IMG/VR virus record: IMGVR_UViG_3300045988_034843
Direction: 5' to 3' (one strand)
Source: a virus
Taxonomy: Duplodnaviria; Heunggongvirae; Uroviricota; Caudoviricetes
Length of the DNA stretch: 25,609 nt
The position numbers and the translations under genes were made by a program. Shown one piece after another: positions 1 through 24,644 of this stretch. The first letter of the stretch is position 1; each line of letters begins with the position of its first letter. The notes beneath the pieces are model-generated. The model had not been told where the DNA came from, ran no database searches, and saw only the letters and a list, made by a program, of their open reading frames with translations.

Positions 1-899
1 TAGATGACATTGTCATATACAAACGTTTTATCCTGCGTCCAGGCGTTGTACCACGGTGTATCTGTAATTTTAAATAACTCTCCCTGGATAAAATCTTCAG
101 AAGCATAAAAAAGAGGCTGGCCCGGTATTCTCTCAAATAAAAAACGAGCATTTTTAAATCGACTGACATCCGGAAGAGTTGATACTTTAAAAGTAAGCCC
201 TAATCCGTCAATTTTATAACCTGGAGATGAGGCTTCAAGGCACGCGCTTATTGCAGTGGAATCGTCATTTATACCATCACCAACAGCTCCAAAATCTTTG
301 GGGCTAATAGCATCACGCATTTTATCCTGGAACGTTCGGTACACAGCCCCAGAACCATACTGAATAAACCAACCAAAACCACCAACAACTCCGGCGATTG
401 CAGCATCGACATAATTACGCATTGAGCGATTATTTACAGCGTCCTGCTCAAATGATGGATCTGCAAGGTTAGAAATTTTGTTTTGCTTTGCATCGTAATA
501 TTTTGCAAGCAAAGATGGTTTCATCAATGCACGTCTGAACCACCCAAAACATTGCTGGATCAGCATCGTCAGGTAGTCAAAGGCATCTTCATGCACTTCG
601 GGGAAAAATTTTCCCTGATTGCGAAGGTCTGTGTCCTGCACTACATCAAGCACACGATCTATCGTAATTCGCCATCCAGTAGCAAGCGGAGACGGAAGAA
701 CCACAGAACCGCCACTATAAGTGCCCGCCCCAGTTACCGTATAACCGGTATCCAGGACCAATTCTGTTACGTTCCCGTTCAGGTCAGACACCTGAACAAC
801 CAGGTCTGATTTTCTGAAAATTCGAAAAGTATACGGAAACGATGTCGTAACGCCGTTACCGGTGTATTCGTTGTGGTCAACTTCGGTTGAGACCGTCAT
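1..899 (-). CDS. Tailspike / tail fibre, N-terminal ~299 aa only; gene continues past window start
   Basis: ATG at 899 preceded by GGAGA RBS; own translation of minus strand gives MTVSTEVDHNEYTGNGVTTSFPYTFRIF...DLVVQV (pattern like the T7 gp17 N-terminal tail-attachment domain) followed by DFGAVGDGINDDSTAI, a motif typical of pectate-lyase-fold tailspike depolymerases. Not in the ORF track because no stop lies inside the window. Confidence 0.8.
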   Translation of the reverse strand, partial: MTVSTEVDHNEYTGNGVTTSFPYTFRIFRKSDLVVQVSDLNGNVTELVLDTGYTVTGAGTYSGGSVVLPSPLATGWRITIDRVLDVVQDTDLRNQGKFFPEVHEDAFDYLTMLIQQCFGWFRRALMKPSLLAKYYDAKQNKISNLADPSFEQDAVNNRSMRNYVDAAIAGVVGGFGWFIQYGSGAVYRTFQDKMRDAISPKDFGAVGDGINDDSTAISACLEASSPGYKIDGLGLTFKVSTLPDVSRFKNARFLFERIPGQPLFYASEDFIQGELFKITDTPWYNAWTQDKTFVYDNVI

Positions 900-1004
900 G
901 TTAAATCTCCAGATAGTCGCAGCACCCGTTGCGCCGCATATCTGGTTATTCTATTACCTGAAAAACCATATATGGATAAAAAGACTATAAATACCAATAG
1001 ATAT

Positions 1005-1019
1005 TACCTTTCGGGTAAT
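1005..1019. promoter_or_regulatory. Dyad operator-like site TTACC-TTTCG-GGTAA (copy 1 of 6)
   Basis: Exact 5-bp inverted half-sites with 5-bp spacer, flanked A...T; 76 bp upstream of the ATG at 1095. Confidence 0.6.
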
Positions 1020-1055
1020 TTGCAAAACGTGCTGGATAGCAAACAAATTATTTGT

Positions 1056-1075
1056 TACTGTATAAACATACAGTT
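1056..1075. promoter_or_regulatory. LexA (SOS) box TACTGTATAAACATACAGTT
   Basis: CTGT-N8-ACAG with AT-rich spacer, close match to the E. coli LexA consensus TACTGTATATATATACAGTA; contains TATAAA (-10-like); 20 bp upstream of the ATG at 1095. Confidence 0.7.
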
Positions 1076-1094
1076 ATTGCATGGAGAAGATAAG

Positions 1095-1352
1095 ATGCAG
1101 CAGTATCACTATCCACTGGAAGACGGATTTACCGAAAGGATTCACACGCCGGGAGGCGTCAGGTCACTGGTGGAGGGATCGCACTTGATGAAATTACTCC
1201 GGGATCTCGATAAGGATGGATTTAATGTCGATGGCCCACTTGCCGAACTGACTGCACTGATTAACTACGTCACCAGCTCACAGATGTCTATGCAGGATCT
1301 GCAAACACATCTCGACTATTGTGCCGAACAATTACGAAAACAAACCCGGTAA
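1095..1352 (+). CDS. Small (85 aa) protein paralogous to the C-terminal domain of the Ant-like protein at 2503-3159; putative LexA-controlled antirepressor/induction factor
   Basis: Internal ATG of track ORF 972-1352 with GGAGAAG RBS 7 nt upstream; the 972 start would place the LexA box and dyad inside coding sequence; about 50 percent identity by eye to residues ~150-210 of the 218-aa Ant-like protein (IHTPGGV..LMKLL..DG..V.G..AELT...DLQTH). Confidence 0.6.
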   Translation: MQQYHYPLEDGFTERIHTPGGVRSLVEGSHLMKLLRDLDKDGFNVDGPLAELTALINYVTSSQMSMQDLQTHLDYCAEQLRKQTR

Positions 1353-2123: not shown

Positions 2124-2138
2124 TTACCTTAAAGGTAA
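2124..2138. promoter_or_regulatory. Dyad operator-like site TTACC-TTAAA-GGTAA (copy 2)
   Basis: Centre 28 bp upstream of the minus-strand ATG at 2103; overlaps a candidate TTGATC-N17-TACCTT promoter on the minus strand. Confidence 0.6.
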
Positions 2139-2216: not shown

Positions 2217-2231
2217 TTACCTTTGCGGTAA
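2217..2231. promoter_or_regulatory. Dyad operator-like site TTACC-TTTGC-GGTAA (copy 3)
   Basis: Same half-sites and spacing; lies in the 400-bp intergenic region between the divergent genes at 2103 and 2503. Confidence 0.55.
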
Positions 2232-2502: not shown

Positions 2503-3159
2503 ATGAACGCTCAACTCATCCCCGTATTCAACGGCACTATATCTAACGAAACAGCCCTACTTTGTAATGCCCGCGATCTGCACGCTTTTTTAGGTGTTAA
2601 AAAGGTGTTTGCAGCATGGATTACAAATCGCATATCAGAATACGAATTCATTGAAAATCAAGACTATATTTTGCTTTCCAATTTGGGAAAGCAAACATCT
2701 GGTAGAGGCGGCCACAACCGCAAAGAGTACCACCTCACCCTTGATACAGCCAAAGAGCTGGCGATGGTCGAGCGTAACGAAAAAGGTCGCCAGGTGCGAC
2801 GCTACTTCATTGAATGCGAGAAACGTTTAAGACAACAAGAAACAAAAGTGGAGAAGGTCTTGTCAGGCTTCATGCCCGCCATTATGGAGGCGATCAAGCT
2901 GGAAGACAAAAAAGAATACAGCGCCCCACTGAAGCCCGGCTACCGCAGCCTGATTCACTCGCCGTCTGGTGTTCTCGGCCTGACTGAGAACTCACTGCTG
3001 ATGAATCTGCTGAACCAGTTACAGGAAGACGGGCACGATGTATCTGGCGCGGCGGCGGAGCTGACCACCATGTTCTGCTACATCGTTGGTGTGAGCAAAT
3101 GCCTGCGTGATATCCAGACCCACGCGGAGTACATCAACGACAAGGCAGGGTTCTTCTGA
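2503..3159 (+). CDS. Antirepressor-like protein, AntA-type N-terminal domain (218 aa)
   Basis: Track ORF; GGAGA RBS 7 nt upstream; N-terminus IPVFNG...[10 protein letters not shown]...F..W...RI.EYEF.EN.DY resembles the AntA/AntB antirepressor domain as I recall it; C-terminal third is paralogous to the 85-aa protein at 1095-1352. Confidence 0.7.
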
Positions 3160-3244: not shown

Positions 3245-3259
3245 TTACCCGATTGGTAA
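3245..3259. promoter_or_regulatory. Dyad operator-like site TTACC-CGATT-GGTAA (copy 4)
   Basis: Centre 29 bp upstream of ATG 3281, downstream of a TTATACT -10-like element. Confidence 0.6.
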
Positions 3260-4360: not shown

Positions 4361-4372
4361 GTGACATGTCAC
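4361..4372. repeat. 12-bp perfect palindrome GTGACATGTCAC (copy 1 of 3)
   Basis: Exact palindrome abutting the hairpin at 4343-4358; overlaps the stop codon of the lipoprotein gene. Confidence 0.6.
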
Positions 4373-4749
4373 GCAACGCAATTATTACCGCGCCATGTAA
4401 CATTTTTAATAATCTTATCAGCACCAAACTCAACGTAAACAGAGCAACTGAAATGGAGTGTATAACCGCCATCAGTTGTTGCGTATGTGTTTGAATATAT
4501 AGTATTACCAATTAGATTAGACGTAGTATTATACGTTGTGGTTTGTGGTACGTTATAACTACCAGAGCTTGAGTAAACATACACTCTGTTTCCATCTGGA
4601 GATGTAAGCTCTCCCTGAGGATACCCCCACTGCTGAACCATTGCGTCTATACTCTGCCCGCGCCACGTAAGCATATTTCTTTCAAACTGTGCAGCTGACT
4701 GGCATCCAACGAGAAGCATAAATCCAAAAATCAAAAATACTTTTCTCAT
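4369..4749 (-). CDS. Putative lipoprotein (126 aa)
   Basis: Internal ATG of track ORF 4369-4785 with AGGGG RBS; MRKVFLIFGFMLLVGCQSA has a lipobox (LVGC); mature part Thr/Ser/Tyr/Asn-rich. Confidence 0.7.
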   Translation of the reverse strand: MRKVFLIFGFMLLVGCQSAAQFERNMLTWRGQSIDAMVQQWGYPQGELTSPDGNRVYVYSSSGSYNVPQTTTYNTTSNLIGNTIYSNTYATTDGGYTLHFSCSVYVEFGADKIIKNVTWRGNNCVA

Positions 4750-4834
4750 AATTACCCCTATCATGGAAAAACAGCACCAATCCACAAATTAACTAGTTAT
4801 TTTATTATTCTTCCGAACAATACAATTCCGAATA

Positions 4835-12306: not shown

Positions 12307-12770
12307 TATTTTCTCTCCATGTGAAATCTGTGGAAATTAAGACCAAGAGCACCATAAGGCGCGGCTTCTTCAAGCCTGAATCCAAGCCAGTGCAGCCATG
12401 CTTTGGCAACATGGTTTCGCTCGTCGACGTAGTTTTCCAGGCGCGGATAAACTGCCAGCATCTGCTGCAATACAGGGCGGCAGTGGCGCAGAAATGTCTT
12501 CTGATATTTTTCAATACGGCTGGTTCCTACCAGCCAGGGCGTACCATTGCCACCGATCATTGACGCCGGAGATACACCAAACATGGTTACCAGTTCTCCG
12601 TTCGCGAACCCTGACCAGGCCATAGTCGCAGTGCGAAGACCAACGCGCAGCGCATCTTCGGTAGTCATCAGCGATACCGCATACAGTTCGTCAATATCAG
12701 CCTGACGAACATCCGGCAAAATCATCTGAAGATGCTCTTCGGTAGCGGGAATAATTTGAACATCGATCAT
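12306..12770 (-). CDS. Internal virion protein A-like, gp13-like by position (154 aa)
   Basis: Track ORF; ATGA overlap with upstream gene; assignment by synteny only. Confidence 0.5.
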   Translation of the reverse strand: MIDVQIIPATEEHLQMILPDVRQADIDELYAVSLMTTEDALRVGLRTATMAWSGFANGELVTMFGVSPASMIGGNGTPWLVGTSRIEKYQKTFLRHCRPVLQQMLAVYPRLENYVDERNHVAKAWLHWLGFRLEEAAPYGALGLNFHRFHMERK

Positions 12771-18753: not shown

Positions 18754-19050
18754 TCACTCCTGTTCACTGGCCTCTTTGGCCATCTTCAAATACTGTTCAG
18801 GGCAATGCGCCATAACGCGCTGAAACAGTTCCAGCGCCAGATTGCGTTGCCCCTCATTAAATGCCATTGCCATAGCGTCCATCGGTGAGATAGCGGAAAA
18901 CACACGGCCTTTCTCCAGCACCGACCAGACAACGCGACGCCCCTGTTCACTGCTCATGACAAAGCAAATGTCATCAATTTCACGCTGTGCCATGTCACGT
19001 TGCTTACGGGCGTTTTCTTCTTTCAGTTGATCGTCTTCGTAATCTGTCAT
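18754..19050 (-). CDS. Hypothetical protein (98 aa)
   Basis: Track ORF; ATGA overlap with the portal stop; charged, no motif recognised. Confidence 0.5.
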   Translation of the reverse strand: MTDYEDDQLKEENARKQRDMAQREIDDICFVMSSEQGRRVVWSVLEKGRVFSAISPMDAMAMAFNEGQRNLALELFQRVMAHCPEQYLKMAKEASEQE

Positions 19051-21036: not shown

Positions 21037-21051
21037 ATTACCTTTCAGGTA
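21037..21051. promoter_or_regulatory. Dyad operator-like site TTACC-TTTCA-GGTAA (copy 5)
   Basis: Same half-sites and spacing; preceded by TTGACA (21016-21021) 17 bp before TACCTT; lies between the 20947 minus-strand start and the plus-strand tRNA. Confidence 0.6.
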
Positions 21052-21374
21052 ACCAAAGAGTTCATTCCGGTTACTAACCTGACTGGCTTGTCGTTAAATT
21101 GAACAGGTGGAGTGAGCTTTTATTTTGAGCAGTACGGCGTATGGCACATGCGCCGATAGCGGTCTGGATGCGTTTAAGGGGCACCCTCCCTGGCTGTGGC
21201 AAACGAACCAGGTAGCCGGAATGTGCAAGTCGAGCGGTTTTATTCCGCGCACGGGGATTCACCATCCCGGCGATTCGGTGTGACGCCTCGGAAGAGACGA
21301 GGGTACAACGATGAGAGCATTTATGGAGCCGCGACAAAGTGTGGCGCCTTAACAGGCTAAGTGCTCTCAGCGTT

Positions 21375-22076: not shown

Positions 22077-22088
22077 GTGACATGTCAC
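22077..22088. repeat. 12-bp perfect palindrome GTGACATGTCAC (copy 2)
   Basis: Identical 16-mer context (CGTGACATGTCACAAT) to copy 3; sits between the stop at 22072 and the terminator at 22093. Confidence 0.6.
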
Positions 22089-23591: not shown

Positions 23592-24187
23592 TGATTGCCA
23601 TCCTGACGTTCTTTCAGTCTCTTCCTGGCTGCCGCTATGCGATCAGCAATTGTCACATTCACATTAACATCCAGGCGTTCTTTGAATGCGTTGACGTCGA
23701 CGTGCTTACCAATCAGTTCGAGGTTCTTCACCTTGTCAGGCCATTTAATTTTTTTGAGGATGCCAACCAGCTCTTTCTCGTCTCCACGGCCTTCGAACAT
23801 GTCGGCCAGTTCGAAACCTGTCAGGTACTGCCGCCAGACCTTAGGCCATTCCGAGACCGGCTTGATGCTCATATCGTCGTTGAGAATGTCAATCACGTCC
23901 ATCTGGTCGATCTCCACCAGGCGCATGAGAACGTAATCAGCACTGACGCGCATTCGTTTGTTGCGCTCCTCCATCAACTCGGCAATCCGTTTCTGAATGC
24001 GTTCATCGCGCATCATGACACTGGCTTTAACTGCCGCTGTATTTGGGGAGAATCCTGCATTAATCGCAGCCTGAGTCTGGTTTTCAGGCGTTTTGATGTA
24101 TGACTGGCAATAAGCCTCCTGCATTGCTGTTAGTGGCTTAAATTGCGTTGATTTGCGTTTATAGGTTTTAGGTTCAGCAGGCATCAT
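23588..24187 (-). CDS. Terminase small subunit (199 aa from ATGATG at 24187)
   Basis: Track ORF 23588-24265 begins at a TTG; the in-frame ATGATG at 24187 is preferred; helix-turn-helix-like TAMQEAYCQSYIKTPENQTQAAINAGFSP; directly upstream of and overlapping the large subunit. Confidence 0.55.
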   Translation of the reverse strand: MMPAEPKTYKRKSTQFKPLTAMQEAYCQSYIKTPENQTQAAINAGFSPNTAAVKASVMMRDERIQKRIAELMEERNKRMRVSADYVLMRLVEIDQMDVIDILNDDMSIKPVSEWPKVWRQYLTGFELADMFEGRGDEKELVGILKKIKWPDKVKNLELIGKHVDVNAFKERLDVNVNVTIADRIAAARKRLKERQDGNQ

Positions 24188-24204
24188 AACCACCGTGGTA
24201 ATAG

Positions 24205-24219
24205 TTACCGTTGTGGTAA
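24205..24219. promoter_or_regulatory. Dyad operator-like site TTACC-GTTGT-GGTAA (copy 6), embedded in GGTAA-TAG-TTACC-GTTGT-GGTAA-TAG-TACC
   Basis: Centre 25 bp upstream of the terminase small-subunit ATG; extra half-sites on both sides form a tandem GTGGTAATAG(T)TACC direct repeat. Confidence 0.55.
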
Positions 24220-24230
24220 TAGTACCATGC

Positions 24231-24256
24231 AAAATAAAGCCGCCATAGTTGGCGGC
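24231..24256 (-). terminator. Rho-independent terminator (minus-strand reading GCCGCCA-ACTA-TGGCGGC + TTTATTTT)
   Basis: 7-bp GC stem followed by a T-rich run on the minus strand, upstream of the terminase genes. Confidence 0.65.
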
Positions 24257-24297
24257 AGTATTCAAAACCCATCAAATTCATCATGCATAACCCACTC

Positions 24298-24309
24298 GTG
24301 ACATGTCAC
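24298..24309. repeat. 12-bp perfect palindrome GTGACATGTCAC (copy 3)
   Basis: Overlaps the stop codon of the gene at 24306-24644 and lies about 40 bp from the terminator at 24231-24256. Confidence 0.6.
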
Positions 24310-24644
24310 AATATTAATTTCGTTTCATGCCAGCCTTTAGTCACCCAGCATTGCGAGTCACCATTACACGGGCATGAATTCACAGGAACGCTCTCGCCGC
24401 ACTTACCGCAACGTTTTCTGCTGATCGATTTTATACGCCCGCGCACGCGTGCATCATCCTGGCGGATCAGTAACGCTATATACTCACCAAATTCGTAAGG
24501 CGCACGCCCGGGGCGACGCGTGGCACAGTTACGCTCAAGCATTTCAATTTCCTGAGCATCAAGCACAATCTCCAGCTTACGCACACCAGATGCAGCTTGT
24601 CTGGCTCTCTGAGCGGCTTTGCGCTCTGCTGCTGATTTAGCCAT
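24306..24644 (-). CDS. Small basic protein with C-terminal Cys cluster (112 aa)
   Basis: Internal ATG of track ORF 24306-24722 with AAGG 9 nt upstream; basic N-terminus MAKSAAERKAAQRARQAASGVRK; C-terminus CGKCGESVP...CPC...C resembles C4 zinc-finger regulators of the TraR/DksA type (tentative). Confidence 0.5.
   Translation of the reverse strand: MAKSAAERKAAQRARQAASGVRKLEIVLDAQEIEMLERNCATRRPGRAPYEFGEYIALLIRQDDARVRGRIKSISRKRCGKCGESVPVNSCPCNGDSQCWVTKGWHETKLIL

What the first reader, a model, noticed from the sequence alone, without database searches (positions are those of the whole stretch)
24197..24226. Overlapping half-site array and tandem repeat directly upstream of the terminase small subunit
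GGTAA-TAG-TTACC-GTTGT-GGTAA-TAG-TACC creates the N5 dyad plus two everted N3 dyads, which is also a direct repeat GTGGTAATAG(T)TACC x2. It sits between a minus-strand terminator (24231-24256) and the terminase start (24187). It could be a multi-dimer binding site controlling late/packaging gene expression, or part of the terminase recognition region.
Basis: seen in the sequence. Interest (0 to 1): 0.55.

Follow-up and report, generated by a model that had tools for sequence, protein, structure and literature searches.

The report
Prophage repressor operators at terminase promoter
The repeat array in front of the terminase gene is a pair of binding sites for the prophage's own immunity repressor, sitting on the likely promoter of the DNA-packaging genes; the same site is already annotated in the reference phage epsilon15, so the finding is real but ordinary.

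Summary
The sequence is exactly as described. The window is a phiV10/epsilon15-like (Uetakevirus) E. coli prophage with its genes on the minus strand. The core of the array is the N5 dyad TTACC-N5-GGTAA (24205-24219). This is not a local oddity. It has 6 exact copies in the window (0.34 expected for matches with up to 1 mismatch) and 8-11 exact copies in each of five related phage genomes. All copies checked are intergenic. They include pairs on both sides of the repressor gene, which is a homologue of SPC32H Rep (PDB 5d50). The RefSeq record of epsilon15 already annotates the orthologous site upstream of terS as a repressor binding site. The 18-nt direct repeat is simply these two operators in tandem, and the "everted N3 dyads" are their junctions and are not conserved. 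The left arm of operator 1 abuts a conserved extended -10 element (TGnTAnnAT). The PL-like early promoter has the same layout, with TTGACA at 17 nt. Phages with a related terminase but lambda-type regulation lack the motif. The array is not coding, and the only RNA structure conserved across lineages is the operator dyad itself, with no compensatory changes. Verdict: a repressor-controlled late (packaging) promoter, already known in kind, low interest.

The parts
24205..24219 (.). Operator O1: exact palindrome TTACC-N5-GGTAA (minus strand TTACCACAACGGTAA). It is orthologous to the site annotated 'protein_bind, repressor, lysogeny' at 12..27 of the epsilon15 RefSeq record.
   Evidence: Both arms are invariant in all nine lineages aligned and in 19 E. 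coli haplotypes.
24187..24201 (.). Operator O2: a copy with one mismatch (minus strand TTACC-ACGGT-GGTTA), 18 bp centre-to-centre from O1. It covers the Shine-Dalgarno sequence and the first ATG. It is probably weaker than O1: it has one arm mismatch and a G at the spacer centre, whereas all 49 unique exact sites have A or T there.
   Evidence: One-mismatch counterparts occur in epsilon15, L007 and L079 (TTACT-TCGGT-GGTAA) and in BUCT554 (TTACT-CAGGT-GGTAA, offset 20). O2 is absent from the Klebsiella-type loci. Its arms are invariant in the E. coli haplotypes, while its second spacer base is the most variable column.
24219..24227 (-). Inferred extended -10 promoter element TGgTACTAT. The last T of the hexamer is the first T of O1. 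The predicted transcription start is about 24212 +/- 2, inside the O1 spacer.
   Evidence: The pattern TGnTAnnAT is invariant in nine lineages, while n and hexamer positions 3 and 4 vary. The PL-like promoter has the same hexamer/operator layout, with a perfect TTGACA at 17 nt in five genomes. No transcription start data are available, so this part is inferred.
24201..24206 (-). Second -10-like hexamer AACTAT, which abuts O2 in the same way as the first abuts O1. The 18-nt direct repeat is therefore a tandem copy of a '-10 hexamer + operator' module. It may be a second promoter with a very short leader.
   Evidence: BUCT554 has TAAAAT abutting its O2. A comparable module with an exact operator followed by 3 nt and then ATG sits at the DUF1064/gp43 gene.
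24190..24194 (-). Shine-Dalgarno sequence GGTGG of terS, lying inside O2.
   Evidence: Annotated as a ribosome-binding site in phage Tyrion.
23588..24184 (-). terS, the terminase small subunit (Pfam Terminase_2). The start is most likely the ATG at 24184; an alternative ATG lies at 24187.
24231..24256 (-). Intrinsic terminator that ends the upstream (early-right) transcription unit: GCCGCCAACTATGGCGGC followed by TTTATTTT.
   Evidence: Annotated as a terminator in the epsilon15 and phiV10 records. Absent from the Klebsiella/Enterobacter-type loci, which still keep the operator.
21038..21052 (.). Another exact copy of the operator in the late region, upstream of the gp3-like and portal genes. 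It is orthologous to the annotated epsilon15 repressor site 2931..2947.
3245..3259 (.). Exact operator copy 21 nt upstream of an ATG on the plus strand, with the hexamer TAAAAT abutting it.
2217..2231 (.). Exact operator copy in the divergent intergenic region upstream of the Ant-like gene (2503-3159, plus strand). It pairs with the copy at 2124, 93 bp away.
2124..2138 (.). Exact operator copy 20 nt upstream of the ATG of the minus-strand gene 1375-2103.
1004..1018 (.). Exact operator copy upstream of a short Ant-C-terminus-like ORF.

Best explanation
The array is a pair of tandem operators for the prophage's immunity repressor. This repressor is a Rep protein of the SPC32H / epsilon15 gp38 family: an N-terminal helix-turn-helix domain, a tetramer, inactivated by an antirepressor. 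Each operator is the 15-bp palindrome TTACC-N5-GGTAA, or ATTACC-N5-GGTAAT in full. O1 (24205-24219) is a perfect copy. Its left arm begins at the last base of a conserved extended -10 element (TGgTACTAT), so a bound repressor would cover roughly -7 to +8 of a promoter that starts the terS-terL packaging operon. O2 (24187-24201) is a weaker copy 18 bp downstream, over the ribosome-binding site and start codon. In the lysogen, Rep would occupy O1 and probably O2, and one tetramer has two DNA-binding dimers available for this. That would block RNA polymerase. When the antirepressor inactivates Rep, this promoter would be freed together with the other Rep-controlled promoters. What is shown: the motif, its copy number, its positions, its conservation, its orthology to the annotated epsilon15 site, and the presence of a Rep homologue in a prophage carrying the identical sequence. 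What is inferred: that Rep itself is the binder, that TGnTAnnAT is an active promoter, and that O2 is occupied.
For: (1) The motif is multi-copy. There are 6 exact copies in the window and 8-11 in TL-2011b, phiV10, epsilon15, SPC32N and Kp4865-1, against 0.03-0.05 expected; 0 of 100 shuffles reach the observed counts. (2) The positions are classical for an immunity repressor. Pairs or triplets lie between rep and the cro-like gene and just downstream of rep (OR-like and OL-like). Others lie in front of int, of the genes downstream of the replication genes (gp43/DUF1064), of gp3/portal, and in the tailspike/ant and lysis-cassette regions. All 10 exact TL-2011b sites fall outside annotated CDSs, though two of them lie inside a pseudogene-like misc_feature. 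(3) The epsilon15 RefSeq record annotates seven of these palindromes as 'protein_bind: repressor, lysogeny', including 12..27 directly upstream of terS, which is the orthologue of O1. (4) An E. coli chromosome with a 100% identical copy of the finding region carries, 6 kb away in the same prophage, a 194-aa protein that is 42% identical to SPC32N Rep and flanked by the motif. The near-identical TL-2011b protein matches PDB 5d50 at E 6.6e-42. According to later papers that cite the original study, Rep binds palindromic sites as a tetramer. (5) The motif follows the regulatory module, not the packaging module. phiES15 (TerS 55-56% identical) and Pseudomonas phage PfDIW6 (TerS 56% identical, epsilon15-like structural genes) both use CI/Q-type regulation, have no exact copy, and have nothing of the kind upstream of terS. 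(6) The promoter layout recurs. The PL-like promoter is TTGACA-17-(A/G)AT(C/T)AT with the hexamer's last T as the first T of TTACC in five genomes, and TTGACT at 17 nt in Kp4865-1. At terS the TG and the T1, A2, A5 and T6 positions of TGnTAnnAT are invariant across nine lineages, while the degenerate positions vary. (7) Among 19 E. coli haplotypes, the variable columns between the terminator and the ATG fall only on the G before CATG, the n of TGn, hexamer position 3, the operator spacers and the middle of the inter-operator triplet. The arms of O1 and O2 never vary.
Against: No binding or transcription-start experiment on this site could be read. The primary SPC32H and epsilon15 papers are not held, so Rep as the binder rests on position, annotation and homology. 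The cro-like protein could share the sites. There is no recognisable -35, and the generic promoter scan did not call this site. O2 departs from the consensus in one arm position and has a G at the spacer centre, unlike all 49 exact sites. O2 is degenerate in SPC32N and missing from the Klebsiella-type loci, so it may be dispensable. Its right arm also overlaps Shine-Dalgarno/ATG constraints. Direct repressor control of a late operon leaves unexplained how late timing is achieved.
Confidence: 0.75

Rival explanations
1. Terminase recognition site (pac, or cosB-like). The repeats would be bound by the small terminase subunit to start DNA packaging, as with the lambda R elements or SPP1 pacL upstream of the terS gene.
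For: The repeats lie immediately upstream of terS. The phiV10, epsilon15, SPC32N and Tyrion records all start numbering within about 100 nt of this point. The precedent of lambda cosB and SPP1 pacL is from my own knowledge.
Against: The same palindrome occurs 8-11 times per genome, at promoters and around the repressor gene. A packaging start site is expected to be unique. The arms are invariant while TerS diverges to 73-77% identity. Phages with a related TerS (55-56% identical) but different regulation lack the motif. Record starts are conventions; from memory, epsilon15 DNA is reported to be circularly permuted.
Confidence: 0.05
2. RNA-level control. The palindromic array would fold in the mRNA leader into a hairpin that sequesters the Shine-Dalgarno sequence and AUG of terS, or act as a boxB-like antitermination hairpin.
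For: The window's 63-nt leader folds to -20.7 kcal/mol (z -3.5) and pairs ACCAC with GUGGU (the Shine-Dalgarno sequence) and UAU with AUG. The dyad would form a 5-bp stem with an A-rich pentaloop.
Against: Across nine lineages the only conserved structure is the operator dyad itself. It has 0 compensatory changes and a covariation term of 0.03, and the long Shine-Dalgarno-sequestering helix is not kept. Identical arms at more than 10 unrelated genomic sites point to sequence-specific DNA recognition. If transcription starts after the conserved -10, the 5' arm is not in the RNA. No Rfam family covers the array itself; the only hit overlapping it is ncr1175 at 16.9 bits against a gathering score of 60.
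Confidence: 0.04
3. Lambda PR'-like late promoter. The first repeat would be the -10 and the second a -10-like element in the early transcribed region. The second would cause a sigma70-dependent pause that lets a Q-type antiterminator load (the small regulator encoded just upstream).
For: Both repeats contain nAnnAT hexamers in which only positions 3 and 4 vary. Their start-to-start spacing is 18 nt. A gene annotated 'transcriptional regulator' (phrog_536), containing CxxC and CxC cysteine pairs, lies directly upstream.
Against: The A5 and T6 positions of each hexamer are also operator flank positions (A at -1 in 65% of sites), so their conservation is already explained. The regulator has no Pfam, NCBIfam or PDB match, so no link to Q. 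In phage Chlobot its homologue sits next to the excisionase and integrase genes, not next to late genes. The terminator is upstream of the promoter, not downstream.
Confidence: 0.04
4. The array is coding. terS would start at the upstream TTG (24265), as annotated in phiV10 and by PGAP, and the repeat would encode a Thr/Ile/Val-rich N-terminus.
For: The window has an uninterrupted ORF from TTG 24265. The phiV10 record and the RefSeq annotation of E. coli 50579417 use the long form.
Against: In-frame stop codons lie inside the orthologous array in L079, BUCT554 and Kp4865-1. The TTG lies just upstream of the terminator hairpin, so the extension would be read through the terminator. The Terminase_2 domain starts at residue 19 of the short form. 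A Shine-Dalgarno GGTGG precedes the ATG. The epsilon15, TL-2011b, Tyrion and SPC32N records use the ATG. Substitutions in the array are not spaced at 3-nt intervals.
Confidence: 0.02

Closest known systems
Repressor-binding sites annotated in Salmonella phage epsilon15 (NC_004775.2), together with the Rep/Ant immunity system of epsilon15-like phage SPC32H (PDB 5d4z, 5d50)
   Same: The palindrome ATTACC-N5-GGTAAT is the same. The position directly upstream of terS and after the same terminator is the same (epsilon15 12..27). The genome-wide distribution is the same. A Rep homologue is encoded in the same prophage type.
   Different: Here the site is in an E. coli phiV10-type prophage with spacer ACAAC instead of AAAAC. 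The second site (O2) and the overlap with an extended -10 are not annotated in epsilon15. I could not read any experiment showing Rep bound at this particular site.
Lambda CI/Cro operators (OR1-3, OL1-3)
   Same: Both are palindromic operators in tandem that overlap core promoters. Both flank the repressor gene on both sides, occur in pairs that suggest cooperative or looped binding, and serve a helix-turn-helix repressor (established knowledge; positions).
   Different: Lambda has operators only at PR/PRM and PL, and controls its late genes indirectly through Q antitermination. Here the same operator also sits in front of the packaging, head, tailspike/ant, lysis and integrase units. Rep is not an S24 self-cleaving repressor; it is inactivated by an antirepressor.
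Dispersed-operator repressors: P1 C1 (many operators around the genome) and mycobacteriophage L5 gp71 'stoperators'
   Same: One immunity repressor with 10 or more sites scattered over the genome silences many transcription units directly (from my own knowledge; not tested here).
   Different: Those sites are asymmetric. L5 stoperators act as roadblocks inside operons. Here the sites are symmetric and sit on promoters.
Lambda cosB R-elements and SPP1 pacL (TerS binding repeats upstream of terS)
   Same: Short repeats immediately upstream of the small terminase gene.
   Different: Those are unique to the packaging origin and are bound by TerS. The present motif is multi-copy and follows the immunity module.

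Membership tests
Rep (SPC32H / epsilon15 gp38-type) operator | Palindrome (A)TTACC-N5-GGTAA(T) with an A/T-rich spacer | tested here: met
   O1 is an exact match with an A at the spacer centre. All 49 unique exact sites have A or T at the centre. O2 meets this only partly: one arm mismatch and a G at the centre.
Rep (SPC32H / epsilon15 gp38-type) operator | Many copies per genome, intergenic, including both flanks of the rep gene | tested here: met
   There are 8-11 exact copies per genome against about 0.04 expected. OR-like and OL-like clusters are present in TL-2011b, phiV10, epsilon15, SPC32N, Kp4865-1 and E. coli 50579417.
Rep (SPC32H / epsilon15 gp38-type) operator | Cognate Rep gene present in the same phage | tested here: met
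   The window itself ends before the immunity region. A chromosome with a 100% identical copy of the finding region has Rep (42% identical to SPC32N Rep) 6 kb upstream. TL-2011b Rep matches PDB 5d50 at E 6.6e-42.
Rep (SPC32H / epsilon15 gp38-type) operator | Orthology to a site already assigned to the repressor | tested here: met
   The epsilon15 feature 'protein_bind 12..27, repressor, lysogeny' aligns column for column with O1.
Rep (SPC32H / epsilon15 gp38-type) operator | Physical binding of Rep and Rep-dependent repression | not testable with these tools
   This needs EMSA or footprinting, ChIP, or reporter assays. The primary papers are not held.
Sigma70 extended -10 promoter | TGnTATAAT-like element conserved at a fixed place upstream of the gene | tested here: met
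   TGgTACTAT is present. TG, T1, A2, A5 and T6 are invariant in nine lineages, and the variable positions are n, 3 and 4. The same hexamer/operator layout is found at the PL-like promoter, which has a consensus -35.
Sigma70 extended -10 promoter | Mapped transcription start about 7 nt downstream | not testable with these tools
   No 5'-end data are available.
Terminase recognition site (pac/cos) | Unique site at the packaging origin, specific to the TerS type | tested here: not met
   The motif is multi-copy. It is invariant across TerS proteins 73-100% identical and absent where the TerS is related but regulation differs.
Terminase recognition site (pac/cos) | Virion DNA ends or the first headful cut map here | not testable with these tools
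   No sequencing-read or restriction data are available.
Structured regulatory RNA (leader hairpin or boxB-like) | Conserved pairing supported by compensatory changes | tested here: not met
   0 of 10 consensus pairs show changes on both sides, and the covariation term is 0.03. No Rfam match covers the array except ncr1175 at 16.9 bits against a gathering score of 60.
Lambda PR'/Q late promoter | Q-family antiterminator gene upstream and a terminator downstream of the promoter | tested here: not met
   The upstream regulator has no Pfam, NCBIfam or PDB hit. The terminator lies upstream of the -10.

The most novel reading that the evidence does not exclude
In this phage group the immunity repressor may gate the packaging operon directly, through a tandemly duplicated '-10 hexamer + operator' module whose second copy holds the terS ribosome-binding site. 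In that case there would be no dedicated late-gene switch of the lambda Q type. Late timing would then come from something else, perhaps read-through control at the upstream terminator together with the conserved terminator-associated palindrome GTGACATGTCAC. This would be a one-tier regulatory architecture for a temperate podovirus.
Probability: 0.25. Interest if true: 0.4.

Novelty: already known. Interest (0 to 1): 0.15.

Why it matters
It matters little beyond annotation. It shows that the packaging operon of phiV10/epsilon15-like prophages, which are present in about 9% of complete E. coli genomes, carries the immunity repressor's operator on its likely promoter. This suggests that late genes are silenced directly in the lysogen, not only through an early-gene cascade. 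It corrects the over-long terS start used in the phiV10 record and by PGAP. It also gives a clean operator consensus that could be used to map the Rep regulon in these prophages and in engineered phiV10 reporter phages.

Tried and rejected
(1) The generic -35/-10 promoter scan gave nothing at the array, because it requires a -35. I relied on comparative evidence instead. (2) I considered a sigma70 pause / Q-like reading of the two -10-like hexamers and dropped it: the regulator shows no Q homology, the terminator is on the wrong side, and hexamer conservation is largely explained by the operator flank. (3) RNA folding gave a stable window-specific hairpin, but it is not conserved and shows no covariation. 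(4) Rfam gave only a sub-threshold rseX hit over the terminator region (29.9 bits against a gathering score of 50) and nothing meaningful on the array. (5) I tried five times to open the primary papers (epsilon15 genome PMC2698709; SPC32H PMC3807360 and PMC4983836) and none is held, so I could not check whether they name this site or its sequence. (6) The vB_EcoP_ZX5 paper discusses the repressor and antirepressor but defines no operator. (7) A literature search on epsilon15 packaging and pac sites gave nothing usable. (8) I looked for a third operator upstream of O1 and found only a half-site-like GGTAC, which is the non-conserved part of the TGn-TAC element.

Full report
WHAT THE WINDOW IS. 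The region matches phiV10/epsilon15-like temperate podoviruses (genus Uetakevirus) at 95-98% identity; these include TL-2011b, phiV10, the O157 typing phages 9 and 10, and ZX5. The genes run on the minus strand. terS (Pfam Terminase_2, E 2e-29) is at 23588-24184/24187, followed by terL. Upstream lie a 112-aa 'transcriptional regulator' (phrog_536), an intrinsic terminator, and then the array. A 221-nt stretch around the array is present in 502 of 5,426 complete E. coli genomes.

OBSERVATION. The repeat finder reports an exact 11-nt repeat spaced 18 nt. On the coding (minus) strand the region reads: terminator GCCGCCAACTATGGCGGC-TTTATTTT, then GCA-TGgTACTAT-TACC-ACAAC-GGTAA-CTA-TTACC-ACGGT-GGTTA-TG-ATG.

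THE KEY RESULT: THE N5 DYAD IS A GENOME-WIDE MOTIF.
- TTACC-N5-GGTAA has 6 exact copies in the window (1004, 2124, 2217, 3245, 21038, 24205), plus a one-mismatch copy at 24187-24201. The expected number for matches with up to 1 mismatch is 0.34, and 0 of 100 shuffles reach 7.
- Complete relatives carry 8-11 exact copies plus 4-8 one-mismatch copies, against about 0.04 exact copies expected.
- In TL-2011b the copies lie upstream of int, as a pair just downstream of the helix-turn-helix repressor gene gp10, as a pair between gp10 and the divergent cro-like gene, as a pair after the replication genes, upstream of terS, upstream of the gp3/portal genes, and in the ant/tailspike region. None of the 10 exact sites lies in an annotated CDS, though two lie inside a pseudogene-like misc_feature.
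- This is the layout expected for an immunity repressor's operators.
- TL-2011b gp10 matches the solved Rep repressor of the epsilon15-like phage SPC32H (PDB 5d50) at E 6.6e-42. Later papers describe Rep as a tetramer that binds palindromic sites and is released by the antirepressor Ant.
- SPC32N has the same motif at the same places, including 12-26 upstream of terS. From memory, SPC32N differs from SPC32H by two nucleotides.

ALREADY ANNOTATED. The RefSeq record of epsilon15 carries seven 'protein_bind: repressor, lysogeny' features. All are ATTACC-N5-GGTAAT palindromes. One is at 12..27, directly upstream of terS (47..643) and just after the same terminator. In the alignment it corresponds column for column to O1 of the window. 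The centre of the finding is therefore the orthologue of a site already assigned to the repressor in the type phage.

SAME PROPHAGE, SAME SYSTEM. The window stops short of the immunity region. However, E. coli 50579417 has a 100% identical copy of the finding region in a prophage next to guaA. That prophage encodes a 194-aa Rep homologue (42% identical to SPC32N Rep, with the NLVNRW helix conserved) 6 kb upstream. It is flanked by operators on both sides, and there are 8 exact and 3 one-mismatch copies in 26 kb.

ANATOMY OF THE ARRAY.
- O1 (24205-24219) is a perfect operator.
- O2 (24187-24201; TTACC-ACGGT-GGTTA on the minus strand) lies 18 bp downstream and covers the Shine-Dalgarno sequence GGTGG and the first ATG.
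- The 18-nt direct repeat is O1 and O2 in tandem. The perfect 'everted N3 dyad' is the right arm of O1, then CTA, then the left arm of O2.
- That junction is not a conserved unit. In BUCT554 the gap is 5 nt (O1-TAAAA-O2, offset 20). The upstream 'dyad' GGTA-CTA-TTACC changes to GTTA or GATA in relatives.
- O2 is near-consensus in several lineages, but the mismatch differs between them: TTACC..GGTTA in E. coli, and TTACT..GGTAA in epsilon15, L007, L079 and BUCT554. It has two mismatches in SPC32N and is absent from the Klebsiella-type loci.
- O2 has a G at the spacer centre, whereas all 49 unique exact sites have A or T there. I therefore rate it as a weaker auxiliary site.
- Closely spaced operators (17 bp apart) also occur between rep and cro in epsilon15, SPC32N and Kp4865-1. 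Pairs about 62 bp apart recur elsewhere. Both arrangements fit a repressor with two DNA-binding dimers.

PROMOTER.
- Across nine lineages whose flanks have diverged (three have no terminator at all), the pattern TG-n-TA-n-n-AT immediately before TACC is invariant. The n of TGn and hexamer positions 3 and 4 vary.
- Among 68 E. coli-type loci (19 haplotypes), the variable columns between the terminator and the ATG are only these: the G before CATG, the n of TGn, hexamer position 3, two O1 spacer bases, the middle base of the CTA between the operators, and the second O2 spacer base. No arm position varies.
- The same layout, with the last T of the -10 hexamer serving as the first T of TTACC, is found at the PL-like promoter downstream of rep. 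There a perfect TTGACA sits exactly 17 nt upstream in five genomes (TTGACT at 17 nt in Kp4865-1). It is also found at the DUF1064/gp43 promoter (TTGATC-17-TTTAAT), where an exact operator is followed by 3 nt and then the ATG.
- I therefore read TGgTACTAT (24227-24219) as an extended -10 promoter for terS. The start would be near 24212, and O1 would cover about -7 to +8.
- The second repeat (AACTAT abutting O2) copies the module and may be a second promoter with a very short leader.
- All of this is inferred. No transcription-start data were available, and the generic scan, which needs a -35, did not call the site.

TESTS OF THE RIVALS.
- Terminase recognition. A multi-copy motif around the repressor gene is not what a pac site looks like. 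In addition, phiES15 (TerS 55-56% identical, lambda-like CI/Q regulation) and Pseudomonas phage PfDIW6 (epsilon15-like structural module, TerS 56% identical, CI/cII/Q regulation, terS abutting the preceding gene with an 8-nt gap) have no exact copy anywhere and none at terS. The motif follows the immunity module, not the packaging module.
- Coding. In-frame stop codons lie within the orthologous array in three lineages. The Terminase_2 domain starts at residue 19 of the short protein. The TTG start at 24265 used by phiV10 and PGAP is therefore very unlikely.
- RNA structure. The window's leader can fold stably (-20.7 kcal/mol, z -3.5). However, the consensus fold of nine lineages keeps only the operator dyad, with no compensatory change.
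- Q-type pause promoter. There is no Q-like protein, the terminator is on the wrong side, and a homologue of the regulator sits elsewhere in phage Chlobot.

MECHANISM (best estimate). In the lysogen the Rep tetramer occupies O1, probably with O2, and blocks RNA polymerase at the terS promoter, just as it does at the PL-like, PR-like and other promoters. When Ant sequesters Rep, the promoter is freed. That the site is a Rep-family operator: confidence about 0.85. That it overlaps an active terS promoter: about 0.6. That O2 is functionally occupied: about 0.5. The timing of late expression relative to early genes remains unexplained.

NOVELTY AND SCORE. This is the orthologue of a site already annotated in epsilon15, belonging to a repressor family that has been solved structurally. 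The incremental points are: the second operator over the ribosome-binding site, the shared -10/operator layout, the reinterpretation of the N3 dyads, and the correction of the terS start. Interest is low (0.15).

SIDE OBSERVATION. A different 12-bp palindrome, GTGACATGTCAC, occurs 3 times exactly in the window (4361, 22077, 24298) and 2-3 times in every complete Uetakevirus genome examined. It always lies close to an intrinsic terminator at the end of a transcription unit, adjacent to it at two of the three window copies and 41 nt upstream of it at the third. At three different gene ends (the regulator gene upstream of terS, the epsilon15 gp18 gene and the window ORF 4369-4785) the TGA stop codon lies inside the palindrome. 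It is absent from the two control phages, is not annotated in epsilon15, and is not found in any searchable paper. Its function is unknown. It may bear on how transcription crosses the terminator just upstream of the array.

Noticed in passing
window 24298-24309, 22077-22088, 4361-4372 (one-mismatch copy at 18987-18998); also epsilon15 L086 2142, 19517, 39612 and SPC32N L087 2145, 19634, 38629: A second multi-copy perfect palindrome, GTGACATGTCAC, has 3 exact copies in the window (about 0.002 expected) and 2-3 in every complete Uetakevirus genome examined. It has none in phiES15 or PfDIW6. It always lies close to an intrinsic terminator at the end of a transcription unit: adjacent to it at two window copies and 41 nt upstream of it at the third. 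At three different gene ends the TGA stop codon is part of the palindrome. It is not annotated in epsilon15, and no searchable paper contains the string. It could be a protein site or an antitermination/processing signal.
   Followed up: partly
window 24265 (TTG) versus 24187/24184 (ATG); phiV10 NC_007804.2 41..715; E. coli NZ_CP033884.1 EGM66_RS05495: The phiV10 record and PGAP annotate terS from the upstream TTG, so the reading frame runs through the terminator. In-frame stops in the orthologous arrays, the Pfam domain start and the Shine-Dalgarno sequence all indicate the ATG (probably 24184). The long form is likely a misannotation.
   Followed up: yes
window 24309-24644 (minus strand): The 112-aa gene immediately upstream of the terminator (phrog_536 'transcriptional regulator', an epsilon15 gp49 homologue) contains C-terminal CxxC and CxC cysteine pairs. 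It has no Pfam, NCBIfam or PDB match. In phage Chlobot a truncated homologue lies next to the excisionase and integrase genes. Its role in late expression is unknown.
   Followed up: partly
window 24232-24317 (minus strand): There is a sub-threshold Rfam match to the Hfq-binding sRNA rseX (29.9 bits against a gathering score of 50, E about 0.04-0.09 for the small region searched). It spans the end of the regulator gene through the terminator. The score comes mostly from the terminator and U-rich parts, so it is probably not significant.
   Followed up: partly
Operator pairs: TL-2011b L084 5172/5234 and 8227/8289; epsilon15 L086 32555/32617 and 35907/35969; Kp4865-1 L088 9526/9588; E. coli L092 16866/16928 and 19971/20033: Operator pairs recur at a centre-to-centre distance of 62 bp (about six helical turns). 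Closely spaced pairs 17 bp apart lie between rep and cro. Both patterns would suit a tetrameric repressor that bridges two palindromes.
   Followed up: partly
Klebsiella phage Kp4865-1, L088 about 12710-12770: In the Klebsiella-type relatives an extra gene lies between the regulator gene and terS. It is preceded by a TTGACT/TATACT promoter-like pair that overlaps a LexA-box-like CTGT-N8-ACAG. This may be an SOS-controlled antirepressor, as described for SPC32H.
   Followed up: no
window 972-1352 and 2503-3159 (plus strand): The 218-aa protein at 2503-3159 looks, from my reading of its sequence, like an Ant/Bro-type antirepressor; its orthologous region is annotated Bro-N in TL-2011b and phiV10, and I did not run a domain search on it. 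The short ORF downstream of the operator at 1004 resembles only its C-terminal part and looks like a truncated paralogue. Four operator copies cluster in this accessory region.
   Followed up: no
epsilon15 L086 26882-26896; TL-2011b L084 135-149; E. coli L092 25585-25599: The conserved one-mismatch operator upstream of int (TTACC-N5-GGTAT) turns its right arm into the start of a -10-like hexamer: GGTATAAT in epsilon15 and GGTATACT in E. coli. The 'mismatch' therefore looks selected, making an operator fused to the int promoter.
   Followed up: partly
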